Of a DNA stretch of 64,000 nt, positions 10,744-48,708 are shown one piece after another. This DNA comes from a virus: IMG/VR virus record IMGVR_UViG_3300028840_005768, positions 987-64,986 of that record. One strand, written 5' to 3'. Each line of letters begins with the position of its first letter. Positions within the stretch are counted from its first letter, which is position 1. The notes below the pieces were generated by a model that was given only the letters and a program-made list of their open reading frames with translations, ran no database searches and was not told the origin of the DNA. Position numbers and translations under genes: made by a program.

Positions 10744-10812
10744 GTTCTCTCCAGAGGAAAAAGTGGGAGCAGGTCGCCACAACCGGCTCCCATTGCAACA
10801 GGGACAGCCAAG

Positions 10813-11164
10813 TGGACCCGCCGGGAATTGAACCCGGGTCCTGCGACAGTTCCATGCCGCCGTCTACGTGCGTATTCGATCGATCGGATCTTGCTGGGTC
10901 AGGCTCGATCGACAAAGCGATTACCAGCCAGCCGGCGTAATCTTGGCCCCAGTCGTACCGGCATCGTACCGGGGTTGCTTGCCGAGGTGGTCGGCCGACC
11001 GGTTGCCCACCTCGGCGAGGGCTTCCGGCCGGAGCTGCTTACGCAGCCATTGCCAATTCGGTCTTGGCGTCTAAAGGAATGATCGGCTTTTAACGTGGCC
11101 CATGCCGATCAACCACGGCACGCAGGCAAGTCACTTTCCTGCCCAGTCGATTCCTGTCGGGCCC
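10813..11164 (-). ncRNA. ssrA: tmRNA (ssrA), 352 nt, tag (A)DAKTELAMAA*
   Basis: acceptor stem GGGCCCG/CGGGUCC with G3.U70, discriminator A, T-arm GGTTCAATTCCC, 5' GACAGGAATCGAC, tag ORF 11039-11071 after TTTA resume context; CCA not encoded. Confidence 0.95.
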
Positions 11165-36041: not shown

Positions 36042-36268
36042 TGGACCTTGATTTGACCGTCCTCGACGGCAATACCGGCCGCCTCCAAGGTTTCCTGGTC
36101 TTCGTTATCCAGGGATGTGGTCACCAAAACACCACAGCTCCCAGAGAAGTAGGCGACCATGATTCGGCGCCCTGGCAACTCCAGGAAGATGTCAACGTCA
36201 TCATCGCTGTTCTCGATGGAGACGTGGATCGGGGTGTCTTCATGTGGTTTCGTTGCGAATCTAGCCAT
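36038..36268 (-). CDS. hypothetical acidic protein
   Basis: ORF track. Confidence 0.55.
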   Translation of the reverse strand: MARFATKPHEDTPIHVSIENSDDDVDIFLELPGRRIMVAYFSGSCGVLVTTSLDNEDQETLEAAGIAVEDGQIKVQ

Positions 36269-37280
36269 TGTCAGTAGCTCCCTTTCGATCGAGGTAATCA
36301 GCAGAAACAGACTTGAGAATCATGCGTCCTTGCAGAACGTCGCTCCATTGCTCCTGCAATGGCGTAATGACGATGCCTTCTCGCCCCTTGAACTTGCAGC
36401 GGATCTGACCCGTCGTTGTCACCGTGGTCGGGCCGTGTGTATACTCTTCGACCAGGTCGGGTGAGAAGGGGCCTTCGTAGAAAAGAGGAACGGTGGGAAT
36501 CTCTTGACATTCATCAACCAGTTCCGCCCAGTCGAGGTACTCGCCACCGATACTGATGTCGAAGATGCGGTAGCCGAGCCCGCCGTAGTCCATGTCTTGG
36601 ATGCCTGGTCCGAAGATTTCACCGAACACGACCACCGGCTCCCCGCCTGCGCTCAGCATGCGAATGAGATCCCGAAGCTGATCATCTTCGAGCGGCTTCC
36701 AGTAACGGCACACCCTGCCGCGGGCATCATGCTGCTTCAACTGGATTCGATGGCTACCAGCGACCCATTCTCCGTCGATGAGGCCGATGCGACTATTCGT
36801 GCCGTGGATCTTCTCGGTGATGCGGACCGGCGTCCCCTCGGGAATGGCCTCAGGATACCGCCAGTAGTGTTGGATGCTGGTGTAGCGGTGGAAGAGCGGG
36901 TGCTCTGGTATTGAGTCGCCAGGGATCTCTGGCGGCTCATACTTCTTTGCGCCATACAGTTGAGTCACGTCCCAACCATCAATGTTGACGACAAATCCGT
37001 ACGACGGGACACCTCGCAGCCGGCAGGCTGCCACCCGACACTGAGTCTTTTCGCCTTCCCACAAGGCATGCTTGAGATATTGCTGTACCCCGAGCCGAGC
37101 AGAGACGTCCGGCGGCAACAGCATATCGGGCGGGAAGTAGGCGACCTTCTCTCCAGGCCGGTGGGTGTCTTTGGGCACGACAACCTGCGTCCCGAGGATC
37201 TTGGCGATCTCCAATCGGTCCGCATTCGGGTGCGGATCGATCTCCTGAATCTCCTGGATCGTGATCGCGATGTCGCTCAT
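36261..37280 (-). CDS. RNA ligase (DRB0094/Rnl2-like) with N-terminal OB domain
   Basis: HPNADRLE.A.I.G..VVV, TEKIHGTN (motif I), FGEIFG, YRIFDI, REGIV, LKSVS.DYL. Confidence 0.9.
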   Translation of the reverse strand: MSDIAITIQEIQEIDPHPNADRLEIAKILGTQVVVPKDTHRPGEKVAYFPPDMLLPPDVSARLGVQQYLKHALWEGEKTQCRVAACRLRGVPSYGFVVNIDGWDVTQLYGAKKYEPPEIPGDSIPEHPLFHRYTSIQHYWRYPEAIPEGTPVRITEKIHGTNSRIGLIDGEWVAGSHRIQLKQHDARGRVCRYWKPLEDDQLRDLIRMLSAGGEPVVVFGEIFGPGIQDMDYGGLGYRIFDISIGGEYLDWAELVDECQEIPTVPLFYEGPFSPDLVEEYTHGPTTVTTTGQIRCKFKGREGIVITPLQEQWSDVLQGRMILKSVSADYLDRKGATDNG

Positions 37281-38299: not shown

Positions 38300-38845
38300 T
38301 TAGAATCCTGGTAGCTGAAGACGAGTTACTTGGGTTACGGGTGATTTGGCAGGTTCAGGCGGGCGGACTATTTCTGGAAGAGCAAATGTCTGTTCTGCGA
38401 TCTGACGCCCACTAAATGCCTTAGGTTTATGGAATAGGCTGAGATCAAATCCGACGTCCTGTTTAGTGATGCGTGGCGCTTTACAAGGGCTTTTCCATTG
38501 AGTTCGATTACAGGCCTCCGCCCACAAGGCTTCAGCGTTCTCTGGAAGTTCAAGCTGTGTACCAAGCTGAATCTTCCAGGATGTTCCAAGTAAGACCCAT
38601 GGCTTATCCCAGCCAGAGCATTGGATCTTGGCGACATAGGGTTGAAGCTTTTCGATGCTGTAGGCATCGCCTTTTACTTCTGCCAAGAGGCATTGATTGA
38701 TGATGAAATCGGGGATGTAGTAATGGAGGTCGAGTTCCTCATATCTCCATTCCCAGCCGAGCAGATCAAAGAGCGCTGCCCAACGTGCCTCTGCTCGACT
38801 GCGGAATTGGATGTTGTGATAGGTGGTAGGAATGCCGTGTTTCAT
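38300..38845 (-). CDS. PD-(D/E)XK-type endonuclease-like protein
   Basis: FRSRAEARWA.LF..LGW.W.YE..YIPDF..AEVKG. Confidence 0.8.
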   Translation of the reverse strand: MKHGIPTTYHNIQFRSRAEARWAALFDLLGWEWRYEELDLHYYIPDFIINQCLLAEVKGDAYSIEKLQPYVAKIQCSGWDKPWVLLGTSWKIQLGTQLELPENAEALWAEACNRTQWKSPCKAPRITKQDVGFDLSLFHKPKAFSGRQIAEQTFALPEIVRPPEPAKSPVTQVTRLQLPGF

Positions 38846-38850
38846 GTGAA

Positions 38851-39680
38851 CCTTGCGTTGACGCGATGGGATTCGATCCGATTAGACGCACTCTGATTTG
38901 ACGAGCGAAGACATAACAAACCGGGATAAGCCTTGTTTCAACCACTCCAGACTCCCAGAGGAACTGGGAGTGGTTGCCTCTCAACGAGAGGTAACCTTGC
39001 GTTGTTTGGATTCGATTCGACCGGACACAACTAGATTCAATGCGACAAGGTCGGACTTAACTTGACCAAATGCACCATGGATGAGTAATCGTTGTAGTTT
39101 TGTTTCAACCACTCCAGACTCCCAGAGAAATCGGGAGTGGTTGCCTCTTAATGAGAGGTAACCTTGCGTTGACGTGACCAGACGCGACCCAATGAGATTT
39201 GACCTGACCAGACACGCCTTGACCTGACAAGACCTAACAAGACCTGACGAGCCCTGTTTCAACCACTCCAGGCTCCTAGAGGAGCTGGGAGTGGTTGCCT
39301 CTCACCTGGGTGAGAGGTAACCTTGCGTTGCTAAGATCCAACCGAATATGACAAGACGAAACTGGGTATGATACGACGCGACAAGACACGATATGACCCG
39401 ATATGACCGGACCAGTTTCAATCACTCCAGGCTCCCAAGGAGCCGGGAGTGGTTGCCTCTCAATGAGAGGTAACCTTGCGTTGCCACAGTGTGACGGGAC
39501 ACAATGAGACCCGACAAGACACAACAAGCACGGACTTAACACGACATGACGGGCTGGGTTCAACCACTCCAGGCTCCCAAAGGAGCCGGGAGTGGTTGCC
39601 TCTCACCTGGGTGAGAGGTAACCTTGCGTTGACAAGATACAACTTGACCGGACCAAACTTGACTTGACCGGACATGATGA
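38851..39680 (-). repeat. array: 5 full 68-74-nt double-hairpin repeats plus 1 partial, alternating with 6 pentamer-periodic tracts (NN-RTY units)
   Basis: repeats 38935-39003, 39102-39170, 39256-39329, 39415-39482, 39558-39630, partial 38851-38859; tracts 75, 98, 85, 85, 75, 50 nt; 74 of 88 in-phase pentamers carry RAY on + (43 GAC). Confidence 0.95.
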
Positions 39681-39688
39681 GTCCCGCC

Positions 39689-40276
39689 TCACGCAGCCTC
39701 TGCGGTGGTCCCTTCCGCCCACTCGAACTTCACCGGGCGGAAGCGACCGTAGTAGCCGTTGTTTCGCGGCCGAAAGCGACCGAGGCCAATGAACTGGCCG
39801 GCTTCAGTAAGCACCTTCTCGAAGATTTCACGAGTCACTGTGTCATCAAGGATGTAGAAGGTGATCGTACCGGCCCACTTGTCGATTTTGGGGAAGCACT
39901 TCTCAACACGGCTTCCGCCACCACGCTGGCCGTTGCTTGGCACGAAGAGCCATTCACCCGGTACATCGGAGGCCTTGATTCCGAGGTCAATGGGTTCGGT
40001 AACCATGACACCGGCCTCAAAGTGCTTGGTGTAGGTCGCCTTCCCCTTGCCGGGGATTTGAAGCCCAAGGAACTTTGCCGCCTCTGAGAGACAGTTTTTG
40101 AGCGCCATGGGCGGAATGATTACGTTGCCCGCTTCGTTGACATGCATTCGCATACGCCAACAGCGGGTCTCATGGTCCTTCGGCAGCTCACGATCGCGGC
40201 GGGGCTCGCTGATGTACTTGGATTGCGAGTACGGCGAATTCGCAGCCGATTCAAGGGTCACAACACAGGTTTGCAT
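39689..40276 (-). CDS. stand-alone RAMP/Cas7-like RNA-binding protein (195 aa)
   Basis: N-terminal beta V.L...SPY.QS, IPPMALKNCL..AA helix, FP.I..W.G.I.F, C-terminal Gly-rich loop AGQFIGLGRFRP.NNGYYGRF; GGAG SD. Confidence 0.75.
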   Translation of the reverse strand: MQTCVVTLESAANSPYSQSKYISEPRRDRELPKDHETRCWRMRMHVNEAGNVIIPPMALKNCLSEAAKFLGLQIPGKGKATYTKHFEAGVMVTEPIDLGIKASDVPGEWLFVPSNGQRGGGSRVEKCFPKIDKWAGTITFYILDDTVTREIFEKVLTEAGQFIGLGRFRPRNNGYYGRFRPVKFEWAEGTTAEAA

Positions 40277-40472: not shown

Positions 40473-41561
40473 TTATTCGATGTCTCTCTTTCTGAAGTAC
40501 CGTGCCTCTTTTGGCACCCCACTGTCCGTTAATTCGCGAAACCGAAAGCTCACCGTCTCACCCACGCGGAAATGCTTCCCCTGAAACTCACTCGGCATGT
40601 CGACGCCTGGATGCCTGGTCGCATGTAGCTTCATGGCATCTGTGGTGAACTCTCGCTCGGCATCCGTAAGCCCAGACAGCTCGAGCCGCTTGCCGCGGAA
40701 GTCGGTGATCAGCGCACCAATCTTGCCAAGGTGCTTTGAACCTTTGTCCGTTTTCCGGCCGGAAGTGAAGCCTGTGATCGTGGCCTCAGCGTCCAGGAAC
40801 GGCTTGTACTTGAGCAGGGTACTGACACGCTTCGGTGTCCACGTTGCCGTGGGACTTCGAACGATGACGCCTTCTCCACCGTGACTCAGGACTTCGTCGA
40901 GGAAGCTTTCCAGAGCCTGCCGGGCGCCAACCTCTGTGTGCGGGAGCATGATCTGCTCATGGACCCGAACAAACTCCCCGTGTACACACTGTTGGAGAAA
41001 CTTCAGCTCGCCTGCAAAGGTGGAGCCACGTTCTACCAGGTCAAACCCAGGCCGCACAGCGATCCGCCGCCGCGCCCATGACATGAACTCTTTGTAGCTC
41101 ACGGCACAGTGGAAGTTGGTGTTCTTGATTTCTCCGTCTGCAAACAGACGTTCAGGATGCGGCGATGAGTAGACGGCATACGTGATCTGATCGAACCGCG
41201 GATCGGGACTGTCTCCCGCACAGATCGACCGGCACGTCTGGAAACGGCCCCGTCCAGCCCACAGCTCGCCGTCTAAGAAGCAGGGCGGCAGATCGTCCAG
41301 GAACCAGTCAGGAGCAATGATCGGGTTCCCATAGCGGCTCCAGAGGCCTGTAGCCGTGGGCTTGATCTTGGCCTTCCGGCCGCCCGTCTTGGGATCCGTG
41401 ACCGACGCCCAGGGGACTTCGACCGTAGGGAGCCCGCGGGAGAGGCCGCCGTCCCAGAAGCATCTGGTCCCGTCGAGCTTCTCACTCAGGAACCAGCCGG
41501 CGATGTTCGATTTCTCAGGATTGAACGTCTTTGCCAGTTGTAGGAATTCACGTCGTGCCAT
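40473..41561 (-). CDS. lig: ATP-dependent DNA ligase
   Basis: SEKLDGTR (KxDG), LDGELW, GEG.IVR, LLKYKP..D.E, OB-fold end. Confidence 0.9.
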   Translation of the reverse strand: MARREFLQLAKTFNPEKSNIAGWFLSEKLDGTRCFWDGGLSRGLPTVEVPWASVTDPKTGGRKAKIKPTATGLWSRYGNPIIAPDWFLDDLPPCFLDGELWAGRGRFQTCRSICAGDSPDPRFDQITYAVYSSPHPERLFADGEIKNTNFHCAVSYKEFMSWARRRIAVRPGFDLVERGSTFAGELKFLQQCVHGEFVRVHEQIMLPHTEVGARQALESFLDEVLSHGGEGVIVRSPTATWTPKRVSTLLKYKPFLDAEATITGFTSGRKTDKGSKHLGKIGALITDFRGKRLELSGLTDAEREFTTDAMKLHATRHPGVDMPSEFQGKHFRVGETVSFRFRELTDSGVPKEARYFRKRDIE

Positions 41562-41649
41562 GGGTACCCTCGTTTCGAAACATGCAGTTGGCTTGTATCT
41601 ATGTGTCTCTGAAAAAGGGTGCTTTTGGTTGGCACAAAACGATATTTTC

Positions 41650-42285
41650 TCATGCGGCCTCTTGGAAACGCTCATAGAGTCGTTTTCGTAGGTGGGAGAC
41701 GTGTTGTTGAGAACACTGAAGACGTTCGCCAATTTCGTGATCCCGATATCCTTGGAGCCGGAGAGAGATGATCTGTTGGTCCAGTGGATCCTCACAACAC
41801 CCCTCAATTTTTTCTAACAAGAAGACCACTTGAAAAGGGTCAGTAAGAGGTGGATCGACAGTGTCTATTGAGACAACATATGGGGGAATACACGTATCGC
41901 TATGTCTTTGTGTCCTTGCGGGAACGGGAATCGTGTTTTCCTCTCTTGCATGGTCATTGATGCTGCAATAGATGCTCTCTCGCAGGAAGCCTGTTGGATT
42001 AGGTTCTTCGATGACATCGGCTAGCGCCAGTTGATTCACCGCTTTGGTCAAAGCTAAGAAGCCCTCACTGATCAGATCGTCGCGTAGAAAATCTATGTAC
42101 GGGTGCTCGTGCAAATAAGCAGCCATTAAAACAATGACAAGAGCCATGTTCCCTTCGATCATCCGCCTCTTGGCATCAGGGTCACCTTGACGAACGCGCA
42201 CGTACAGCGCGTCGTTCTCTTTGCGCGAACAGGGTTGAATCCCGCAGCGAACTGCTTGCTTGGAAATTGGGTTGTGTCGGTTCAT
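41650..42285 (-). CDS. sigma-70-like factor
   Basis: GD.DA...MI..NM.LV (2.1), DL.SEG..AL..AV (2.2), EIG..L.CSQQ.VS.L (4.2). Confidence 0.8.
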   Translation of the reverse strand: MNRHNPISKQAVRCGIQPCSRKENDALYVRVRQGDPDAKRRMIEGNMALVIVLMAAYLHEHPYIDFLRDDLISEGFLALTKAVNQLALADVIEEPNPTGFLRESIYCSINDHAREENTIPVPARTQRHSDTCIPPYVVSIDTVDPPLTDPFQVVFLLEKIEGCCEDPLDQQIISLRLQGYRDHEIGERLQCSQQHVSHLRKRLYERFQEAA

Positions 42286-42767
42286 TTGATGTCGTTTCTT
42301 GTGAAAACCCAAAGTCGATTGCCATAGAACTTGTCGGCCTCGCACCTTTCTCGCGAGTATTGATAGGTCTCGCCGTCTGGATCGAAGATGTCCCCGTACC
42401 GGTAGTGGACCGCATGATGACAACGCAGCCCACGGCCTTCGAGTACACCGAATGTGTTCTCGATGAACCAAGTGAAGCGAGCCCAGTTGTCTTCAAACCA
42501 GACACGTACTCTGTCAGCTCCCCTGCTTGCGCGAATGACAGGCGCCACTTCCACAGGTGTGCAAGCAAACCCGTGCTGCCATGCAGCGTGAATCAATTCC
42601 TGCGGATGGAACCCACGCCGTTGCATCGGTTCCGCCAACTTCGGGAACGCAATCTCGCCGCCGTTATGCCCGATCTCGTCGATGAGTTGTTGCACCGGTA
42701 TCCCGATCGCCATGGCGAATGCCGCCACTGAACAGGACCAGCGATTAGGTTTCCTCTGTAGCCTCAC
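42282..42767 (-). CDS. C39-like cysteine peptidase domain protein
   Basis: Q.....SC..AA.AM, HAV.Y..I.DP. Confidence 0.5.
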   Translation of the reverse strand: MRLQRKPNRWSCSVAAFAMAIGIPVQQLIDEIGHNGGEIAFPKLAEPMQRRGFHPQELIHAAWQHGFACTPVEVAPVIRASRGADRVRVWFEDNWARFTWFIENTFGVLEGRGLRCHHAVHYRYGDIFDPDGETYQYSRERCEADKFYGNRLWVFTRNDIK

Positions 42768-47070: not shown

Positions 47071-47085
47071 ACACTGCTCCAAAAG

Positions 47086-47158
47086 AGCCGCCGATAGGAA
47101 TCGAACCTACAACCTGCTGATTACAAATCAGCTGCTCTGCCGGTTGAGCTACAGCGGC
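47086..47158 (-). tRNA. tRNA-Thr(TGT)
   Basis: GCCGCTG/CGGCGGC acceptor, TAGCTCA D-arm, CTGAT-ttTGTaa-ATCAG, GGTTCGATTCC; no encoded CCA. Confidence 0.95.
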
Positions 47159-48621: not shown

Positions 48622-48635
48622 CGTTATCCTCCAAG

Positions 48636-48708
48636 CTGTGGCGGCAGGGTTCGAACCTGCGACCTACGGATTAACAATCCGGCGCTCTACCGGCTGAGCT
48701 ACGCCACA
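48636..48708 (-). tRNA. tRNA-Asn(GTT)
   Basis: TGTGGCG/CGCCACA acceptor plus discriminator G, CGGA-ttGTTaa-TCCG, GGTTCGAACCC. Confidence 0.95.

What the first reader, a model, noticed from the sequence alone, without database searches (positions are those of the whole stretch)
38860..39680. Decoded dinucleotide strings of the six tracts (putative gapped guides)
SEEN (- strand, 5'->3', fixed trimers removed): T1 39631-39680 TC AT CG AA AA TG CG AA GT TT; T2 39483-39557 CC CC AT GT AA CG TT GT TT GG TC GT CC AC GT; T3 39330-39414 TG CG AT GG AT GT TT GC GT AT CA TC TT AT CG GG TT; T4 39171-39255 AG TC AG TT AG TT AG AA GT TG AG AA TC GG GC TG AC; T5 39004-39073 GC TG AA AA CG TT GC GA TA GT CG GA GA CA; T6 38860-38934 AA TT CC TT AT TT TC AA AG GC TA GG GA CC GC. 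All six differ, carrying 20-34 informative bases each. INFERENCE: if the target is read NN-x-NN-x, the skipped base could coincide with codon wobble positions, so synonymous mutation would not allow escape. For example, the T4 reverse complement read as codon positions 1-2 can give V-Q-A-P-E-L-L-Q-T-L-L-K-L-N-L-E-L. This is suggestive only.
Basis: partly seen in the sequence, partly recalled or inferred. Interest (0 to 1): 0.82.

Follow-up and report, generated by a model that had tools for sequence, protein, structure and literature searches.

The report
Phage VIPR guide-RNA array, GUC type

Summary
On the minus strand, 38849-39690 holds six tracts of 10-17 five-base units. Each unit is two free bases plus a fixed R-T-Y trimer, mostly GTC. 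All tracts are in one register with a conserved 3' anchor.

The gene just upstream (39689-40276, minus strand) has a Cas7-like RAMP fold. Its family profile hits the solved "SUSP1 Vipr protein" (PDB 36pp). The locus is therefore a VIPR system: a Vipr protein plus vrRNAs. Three 2026 bioRxiv preprints show that the NN bases pair with DNA while one target base is skipped, usually the codon wobble base.

This locus differs in three ways:
- The trimer is GUC instead of GGY.
- A two-hairpin module separates the guides.
- A PD-(D/E)XK-type nuclease candidate replaces the clade's usual accessory gene.

No target turned up in the phage's own genome, related loci, IMG/VR, JGI metagenomes or 401 Planctomycetota genomes. 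The NN composition does look like codon positions 1-2.

It is a new member of a known kind. This scan has already noted VIPR arrays on many other genomes, including the same protein clade.

The parts
39689..40276 (-). vipr homologue (P0001, 195 aa): single-domain Cas7-like RAMP with the G-rich loop G-L-G-R-F-R-P...G-R-F
   Evidence: AlphaFold2 mean pLDDT 88.8. Foldseek's best hits are Cas7 of type VII and Csm3, probability 1.0. The family profile hits PDB 36pp 'SUSP1 Vipr protein' at E 2.7e-6 across the G-loop. More than 3500 90%-identity clusters of relatives exist.
39631..39680 (-). vrRNA guide tract T1, 10 units NN+RUY
39483..39557 (-). vrRNA guide tract T2, 15 units
39330..39414 (-). vrRNA guide tract T3, 17 units
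39171..39255 (-). vrRNA guide tract T4, 17 units
39004..39073 (-). vrRNA guide tract T5, 14 units, preceded by a roughly 28-nt non-periodic leader (39074-39101)
38860..38934 (-). vrRNA guide tract T6, 15 units
38849..38860 (-). Conserved 3' anchor CAACGCAAGGTT of T6. The same 12-mer follows every tract (39620-39631, 39472-39483, 39319-39330, 39160-39171, 38993-39004). It continues the 5-nt register with fixed AA units. After T6 it runs straight into the start codon of the next gene, where AAGG may also serve as ribosome-binding site (inference).
   Evidence: The same AA-trimer...AAGG ending is seen across the clade.
39558..39619 (-). Two-hairpin module 1 between T1 and T2. Further copies lie at 39415-39471, 39256-39318, 39102-39159 and 38935-38992.
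   Evidence: The fold of one copy is -45.1 kcal/mol, z -5.5. 91% of cells are paired against 33-46% when partners are slid, and 9 pairs change on both sides across 7 copies from 3 phages.
38300..38845 (-). Accessory-gene candidate (P0002, 181 aa): PD-(D/E)XK-type nuclease domain in residues 1-118, C-terminal part disordered
   Evidence: E19, D46, E56 and K58 are invariant in 5 homologues. Weak PHROG hit to an endonuclease family. The weak Foldseek matches listed (E 0.014-0.06) are dominated by influenza PA endonuclease and otherwise include RecE, restriction and homing endonucleases. The gene holds the same position after the array in L001, L007 and L103.

Best explanation
The stretch is the guide-RNA array of a phage-borne VIPR system. 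The operon (DNA ligase, vipr, array, nuclease-like gene) is transcribed on the minus strand. The transcript yields six vrRNAs, each a run of 10-17 pentamers ending in a fixed 3' anchor, and five of them are followed by a two-hairpin module. By homology with SUSP1 Vipr, one Vipr protomer binds each pentamer, buries the fixed GUC trimer and presents the two free bases. The filament then pairs these dinucleotides with double-stranded DNA while skipping one target base per unit. The decoded strings thus specify targets of the form NNxNNx (20-34 read bases), most likely in coding sequence with x on the wobble position, in a competing phage, prophage or satellite. Binding would silence transcription. 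The adjacent PD-(D/E)XK nuclease candidate may add cleavage.

Shown here: the periodic tracts, the decoded strings, the RAMP fold, the sequence link to Vipr, the conserved gene-array linkage across phyla, and the RNA-type covariation. Inferred: transcription and processing, filament formation, the 1-nt skip in this clade, the nature of the targets, and any nuclease action.
For: 1. The decoding and the periodicity are exact and far beyond chance.
2. P0001 has a Cas7-like RAMP fold. Its family profile matches the solved SUSP1 Vipr protein over the G-loop, with SUSP1 D177-W178-R179 aligned to R167-F168-R169.
3. In all but a few of the 40 further loci with a homologue, from many bacterial phyla and two MAGs labelled archaeal, 5-nt-periodic tracts lie directly downstream and/or upstream of the gene on the same strand.
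4. The near relatives L001 and L103 (80% identical proteins) and L007 (70%) keep the architecture, trimer, anchor and hairpins but carry different NN strings. This is as expected of guides.
5. The hairpin module shows compensatory changes and G-U pairs on the minus strand.
6. No self-target exists in the 106-kb genome at skip 0, 1 or 2, as reported for VIPR.
7. The NN composition of ten guides fits codon positions 1-2 of the phage's ORFs. The score is 21.1 bits, against a null of -0.6 +/- 4.8 (0 of 2000 simulations reach it). Real in-frame strings give 15.7 +/- 5.4, and the other two registers give 9.7 and -23.5.
8. The mechanism itself is experimentally established for type II VIPR.
Against: The sequence link to the characterised Vipr is distant (E 2.7e-6, about 80 aligned residues). 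The fixed trimer is GUC, not GGY. The residue that reads G1 in SUSP1 (D177) is Arg here. The skip length could therefore differ in this clade, and it has not been shown for any member I examined. The clade's usual roughly 160-aa accessory gene is absent from this genome. The composition test is indirect, uses the phage's own codon usage, and could reflect other constraints on the RNA.
Confidence: 0.85

Rival explanations
1. The locus is a VIPR-family array, but this GUC-type clade reads its targets with another spacing (0, 2 or 3 skipped bases) or acts on RNA rather than DNA. The decoded strings would still be guides, but the NN-x-NN-x reading would be wrong.
For: The trimer differs, and the G-loop residue aligned with SUSP1 D177 is Arg. 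The relation to the tested type II protein is distant.
Against: NN composition fits a 3-nt target period with the wobble base skipped, and fits it better than the other two codon registers. The preprint states that all seven VIPR types share the tandem-repeat code. The thumb plus helical elements that set the one-base pocket are present in the model.
Confidence: 0.1
2. The tracts are protein-binding RNA with no guide role, like the (G/U)AG-NN repeats bound by the TRAP ring. The trimers would load an oligomer of P0001 for regulation, packaging or as a sponge, and the NN bases would be mere spacers.
For: The format of a fixed trimer plus a two-base spacer matches TRAP sites (my own knowledge of Bacillus TRAP, not tested here).
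Against: P0001 is a RAMP related to Vipr, not a TRAP-like beta-sandwich. Mere spacers would not be expected to carry codon-like composition, nor to differ completely between phages whose flanking proteins are 70-80% identical. Six different tracts in tandem are hard to explain for a simple loading site.
Confidence: 0.03
3. It is a DNA-level element, such as iterons of a replication origin or a packaging site built from GTC repeats every half helical turn.
For: The array sits in the replication module, with DNA ligase, polA and RNA ligase nearby.
Against: The array has a fixed orientation relative to the RAMP gene in all loci. The hairpin module keeps pairing through G-U pairs, which are valid only on the minus-strand RNA. 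The free bases are not conserved between relatives. There is no AT-rich unwinding region.
Confidence: 0.02

Closest known systems
VIPR (Viral Interference Programmable Repeat) systems, reference type II of Escherichia phage SUSP1 and a Pseudomonas fulva prophage (bioRxiv 10.64898/2026.04.26.720920, .720927, 10.64898/2026.10.15.759431; PDB 36pp)
   Same: It is phage-borne. It has a single small RAMP gene flanked by intergenic arrays of 9-17 pentamers with a fixed trimer and hypervariable NN. A conserved 3' end follows each tract. Several guides lie in tandem with one accessory gene next to them. No self-target is present.
   Different: The trimer is R-U-Y (mostly GUC) instead of GGY. The 3' end is a 12-nt anchor plus two simple hairpins rather than the SUSP1 pseudoknot tail. 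The protein is only distantly alike in sequence, with Arg-Phe in place of Asp177-Trp178. The neighbouring gene is a PD-(D/E)XK nuclease candidate, not vap1. I could not assign it to one of the seven published types because the figures and tables are not held.
Non-canonical VIPR arrays (for example GAC/NN, CAC/NN, WGT/NN, TGH/NN) reported from a genomic language model (bioRxiv 10.64898/2026.10.21.760802)
   Same: These are also 5-nt arrays with trimers other than GGY, next to Vipr-like folds. The clade surveyed here contains GAC and CAC types as well.
   Different: GUC is not named in that paper's text. That work gives no targets or mechanism either.
Cas7 backbone of Class 1 CRISPR effectors (Csm3, Cmr4, type VII Cas7)
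   Same: These are the best structural matches. The logic is shared: one protomer per RNA segment, with a thumb that breaks the duplex periodically.
   Different: The period is 5 nt with three guide bases buried, against 6 nt with one flipped. The locus has no CRISPR repeats, no cas1/cas2, no large or small subunit genes, and a single RRM domain.
TRAP (trp RNA-binding attenuation protein) binding sites
   Same: Both consist of repeated triplets separated by two-base spacers.
   Different: The protein fold is unrelated, TRAP has no guide function, and its sites lie in a leader RNA rather than in tandem arrays with variable content.

Membership tests
VIPR | Vipr protein: small single-RRM RAMP with G-rich loop and thumb, related to the published Vipr | tested here: met
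   AF2 model pLDDT 88.8. Foldseek's best hits are Cas7 and Csm3 at probability 1.0. The profile hits PDB 36pp SUSP1 Vipr at E 2.7e-6 over the G-loop.
VIPR | vrRNA gene: tandem pentamers, fixed trimer alternating with hypervariable NN, roughly 9-16 units | tested here: met
   Six tracts of 10-17 units. 74 of 88 units are R-T-Y and the NN positions are near-uniform. The trimer is GUC rather than GGY, a related consensus of the kind the papers allow.
VIPR | Invariable structured 3' tail after each repeat tract | tested here: met
   A 12-nt anchor follows all six tracts, and a two-hairpin module with covariation follows five of them. The structure differs from the SUSP1 pseudoknot. The last guide, and single-guide relatives, lack the hairpins.
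VIPR | Array in the intergenic space flanking vipr, in a virus or provirus | tested here: met
   The array starts 9 nt after the vipr stop codon. The record is a 106-kb virus genome. The same linkage holds in most of the 40 other loci, with none detected in L020 and only a weak signal in a few.
VIPR | Accessory gene (vap) next to vipr | tested here: inconclusive
   The roughly 160-aa accessory gene found in about 33 of 40 loci of this clade is absent from the genome (tblastn E > 0.1). A PD-(D/E)XK nuclease candidate holds the position here and in the nearest relatives. Whether it is one of vap1-6 cannot be told from the held text.
VIPR | vrRNAs are expressed and co-purify with Vipr | not testable with these tools
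   No RNA run holds the stretch. This needs small-RNA sequencing and a pull-down.
VIPR | Natural targets match the NN string under the 1-nt skip rule, mostly wobble-aligned | tested here: inconclusive
   No target was found. The searches were exact-seed scans and limited samples, not the published nhmmer workflow. The NN composition agrees with wobble-aligned coding targets.
VIPR | No self-targeting of the source contig | tested here: met
   The best matches in the 106-kb genome at skip 0, 1 and 2 equal the shuffled controls.
CRISPR-Cas | Direct repeats of 20-50 nt alternating with contiguous spacers, with cas1/cas2 or effector modules | tested here: not met
   The variable parts are themselves 5-nt periodic. 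No other cas-like gene lies among the neighbours. Rfam finds nothing in the region.

The most novel reading that the evidence does not exclude
In this GUC-type subclade (the window, L001-L003, L007, L103) the clade's usual accessory protein has been replaced by a PD-(D/E)XK nuclease with intact catalytic residues, placed directly after the last guide. The phage's VIPR may therefore cut the DNA of a rival element instead of only silencing it. That would be a phage-borne nuclease guided by a gapped RNA code. A second open point: one Vipr clade with an almost identical G-loop uses at least eight different fixed trimers (GUC, GGC, CGC, GUU, CUC, GAC, CAC, AUU). Trimer choice must then be set elsewhere, perhaps in the thumb (residues 102-132 track the first trimer base).
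Probability: 0.25. Interest if true: 0.55.

Novelty: new member of a known kind. Interest (0 to 1): 0.3.

Why it matters
The result places a large environmental phage, recovered from sediment and seawater metagenomes, in the newly described VIPR family. It also shows that the family to which it belongs is very widespread: more than 3500 protein clusters at 90% identity, and 1240 clusters at 50% identity. Members include Burkholderia pseudomallei prophages and MAGs of many phyla. The clade survey yields a compact natural series, with one protein family and eight fixed trimers, that could be used to work out how Vipr proteins choose their scaffold trimer. The nuclease-linked subclade is a candidate for guided cleavage. 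The specific claim of the finding (decoded strings, one-base skip, wobble evasion) adds nothing to what is already in print.

Tried and rejected
Target search under the published rule:
- Own 106-kb genome at skips 0-3: only the tracts themselves match, at skip 3.
- 46 related loci and the 20-kb flanks of the closest relatives: noise level.
- All 84 guides called in the clade against all loci: noise level, with no excess at skip 1.
- IMG/VR exact seeds, by tract:
  - T1, full length: 0 hits.
  - T2, 9 units: 0 hits.
  - T3, 3' end, 8 units: 18 hits, best extension 24 of 34.
  - T4, 3' end, 8 units: 25 hits, best 25 of 34.
  - T4, 5' end, 9 units: 2 hits, best 24 of 34.
  - T5, 9 units: 2 hits, best 22 of 28.
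  - T6, 9 units: 0 hits.
- JGI metagenomes, T4, 9 units: 6 hits, best 26 of 34.
- 401 Planctomycetota genomes, T4, up to 3 mismatches: 0 hits.
- Hit numbers match chance expectation. Exact seeds miss targets that carry scattered mismatches, so this is not evidence against targeting.

The two T5 seed hits are both in frame and encode R-F-A-[DE]-Y-V-R. One lies in a family B DNA polymerase, the other in an unrelated phage protein. I rejected them as targets because the proteins are unrelated and the matches fall below 80%.

Host: tmRNA similarity to Planctomycetota is limited to conserved cores, so the host is not settled.

Burkholderia route: the prophage locus is not in a held genome.

Expression: no RNA holder is listed. 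Contigs of four DNA runs break inside the array and show no variants.

Other checks that gave nothing:
- Rfam, PADLOC and Pfam find nothing for the RNA or for P0001 and P0002.
- tblastn of P0001 against the INPHARED phage collection found no match.
- No sigma-70 promoter or terminator lies in the array.

I considered and rejected:
- Coding ORFs across the array (38981-39262, 39276-39563, 39460-39675): a 5-nt period is incompatible with coding.
- TRAP-like sites and iterons: see the rival explanations.

Trimer-versus-residue mutual information is confounded by phylogeny and is kept only as a lead.

Full report
**What is there**

On the minus strand, the stop codon of a 195-aa gene (39689-40276) is followed within 9 nt by an 840-nt non-coding stretch that ends at the start codon of the next gene (38845). 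The stretch contains six copies of the 12-mer CAACGCAAGGTT. Reading back from each copy in steps of five gives six tracts of 10, 15, 17, 17, 14 and 15 units. Each unit has the form NN + R-T-Y, and no tract contains an indel.
- 74 of 88 units fit R-T-Y (4.8 expected, p about 1e-78).
- 43 units are GTC (1.5 expected).
- The last position is a pyrimidine in all 88 units.
- The two free positions are nearly uniform in composition.
- No other such tract exists on either strand of the whole 106-kb virus genome.

Five tracts are followed, after the anchor, by a 57-63-nt module of two hairpins. One copy folds at -45.1 kcal/mol with z = -5.5. The sixth tract runs from the anchor straight into the next gene.

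**The neighbouring protein**

Pfam and PADLOC give nothing for the upstream protein P0001, and PHROGs gives only an unnamed family. With an alignment of 33 homologues, AlphaFold2 gives a confident model (pLDDT 88.8). Its best structural matches are Cas7 of type VII CRISPR and Csm3, at Foldseek probability 1.0. A profile of the family hits one solved structure by sequence, PDB 36pp "SUSP1 Vipr protein", at E 2.7e-6. The match lies across the thumb and the glycine-rich loop.

**What is known**

Three bioRxiv preprints of 2026 describe VIPR systems.
- A phage-encoded RAMP (Vipr) binds vrRNAs made of GGY/NN pentamers, followed by a structured tail.
- One protomer binds each pentamer and buries the trimer.
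- The NN bases pair with double-stranded DNA while every third target base is skipped.
- Natural targets lie mostly in coding sequence, with the skipped base on the wobble position. Synonymous change therefore gives no escape.
- The targets are rival phages, prophages and satellites.

A fourth preprint reports Vipr-linked arrays with other trimers, such as GAC and CAC.

**Comparative evidence**

P0001 has more than 3500 clusters of relatives at 90% identity and 1240 at 50% identity. They include Burkholderia pseudomallei prophages.

Forty loci from species genomes of many bacterial phyla, plus two MAGs labelled archaeal, were fetched. In all but a few, 5-nt-periodic tracts lie directly after and/or before the gene, on its strand. 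The fixed trimer changes with lineage: GTC, GGC, CGC, GTT, CTC, GAC, CAC, ATT. Its last base is a pyrimidine in each of these eight consensus trimers. The G-loop core G-x-G-R-F-R-P is shared by most of these types. Guides across the clade end in one to three units with fixed AA, followed by AAGG.

The closest relatives are L001-L003 and L103 (80% identical protein) and L007 (70%). They have the GTC trimer, the anchor, the two-hairpin module and the same downstream gene, but quite different NN strings.

Across seven copies of the module from three phages, 91% of cells pair, against 33-46% when partners are slid. Nine pairs change on both sides. The G-U pairs fit only the minus-strand RNA.

**Accessory gene**

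About 33 of the 40 loci carry a conserved gene of roughly 160 aa after the first downstream guide. It has no Pfam family. It is absent from this 106-kb genome.

Here and in the nearest relatives its place is taken by P0002. Its first 118 residues fold confidently. It keeps E19, D46, E56 and K58 invariant, which is the PD-(D/E)XK pattern. Its weak structural matches are dominated by influenza PA endonuclease, with RecE and restriction and homing endonucleases among the rest. The preprint mentions nuclease accessory genes in types III-V. I could not assign a type.

**Targets**

[quoted passage not shown] The searches covered:
- the phage's own genome;
- the related loci;
- IMG/VR, with exact seeds from all six guides;
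- JGI metagenomes, with one seed;
- 401 Planctomycetota genomes, with T4.

The number of seed hits matched chance expectation, and no extension reached 80%. These scans need an uninterrupted exact seed and reach only part of public data. They leave the question open.

An indirect test does bear on the wobble idea. I took the NN dinucleotides of ten guides (six from the window, four from L001 and L007) and scored them against the phage's own ORFs.

| Model | Score (bits over genome dinucleotide frequencies) |
|---|---|
| Codon positions 1-2 (wobble base skipped) | 21.1 |
| Second codon register | 9.7 |
| Third codon register | -23.5 |
| Random draws (null) | -0.6 +/- 4.8; none of 2000 reach 21.1 |
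| Real in-frame coding strings | 15.7 +/- 5.4 |

**Verdict**

This scan has noted VIPR arrays 281 times in at least 199 genomes, including CGC-type arrays of the same protein clade.

This locus adds a GUC-type member with hairpin-separated guides and a nuclease-like accessory gene. The steps from sequence to function all rest on homology with the SUSP1 system:
- expression and processing of the RNAs;
- filament formation;
- skip length;
- target identity;
- silencing versus cutting.

Noticed in passing
window 10812-11164 (-), 47085-47158 (-), 48635-48708 (-): The virus genome carries a tmRNA gene (tag AKTELAMAA) and tRNA-Thr and tRNA-Asn genes.
   Followed up: partly
L023:3737-4219, L004:5681-6181 and about 30 further loci: A conserved accessory protein of roughly 160 aa with no Pfam family accompanies this Vipr clade in about 33 of 40 loci. 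It is missing from the window's whole genome, where a PD-(D/E)XK nuclease candidate takes its place.
   Followed up: partly
L007-L046: One Vipr clade uses at least eight fixed trimers (GTC, GGC, CGC, GTT, CTC, GAC, CAC, ATT) while the G-loop core GxGRFRP is mostly unchanged. Residues 102, 109, 112, 125, 127 and 132 (thumb region) track the first trimer base, but phylogeny confounds this.
   Followed up: partly
clade-wide, e.g. L018:3564-3698, L030:1277-1366, window 38849-38860: Guides of this clade end in one to three units whose free bases are fixed as AA, followed by AAGG(T). This may be a 3' capping or nucleation motif shared across trimer types.
   Followed up: no
L022:2026-2235 and 2754-2983; L012:634-768; L038:129-283: Some relatives carry very long uninterrupted periodic tracts (27-46 units), beyond the 9-16 units described for vrRNAs. 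They may be several guides without a recognisable separator.
   Followed up: no
L098:2558-2583 (-): A 9-unit seed of guide T5 falls in frame on the R-F-A-E-Y-V-R-D-E stretch of a family B DNA polymerase of a large virus contig. The overall match is 22 of 28, below the 80% criterion, and I judged it chance.
   Followed up: yes
window 36261-37280 (-), 40473-41807 (-), 41650-42471 (-): The array lies between an ATP-dependent DNA ligase and an RNA ligase (Rnl-type with OB domain), with a sigma-factor-like gene upstream. The same synteny (polA, HNH, ligase, vipr, array, nuclease, SEC-C protein) holds in relatives L104 and L105.
   Followed up: no
window 39100-39640: Public assemblies of four metagenome runs all break their contigs inside the array. 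This is a reminder that such arrays are likely under-assembled in metagenomes.
   Followed up: no
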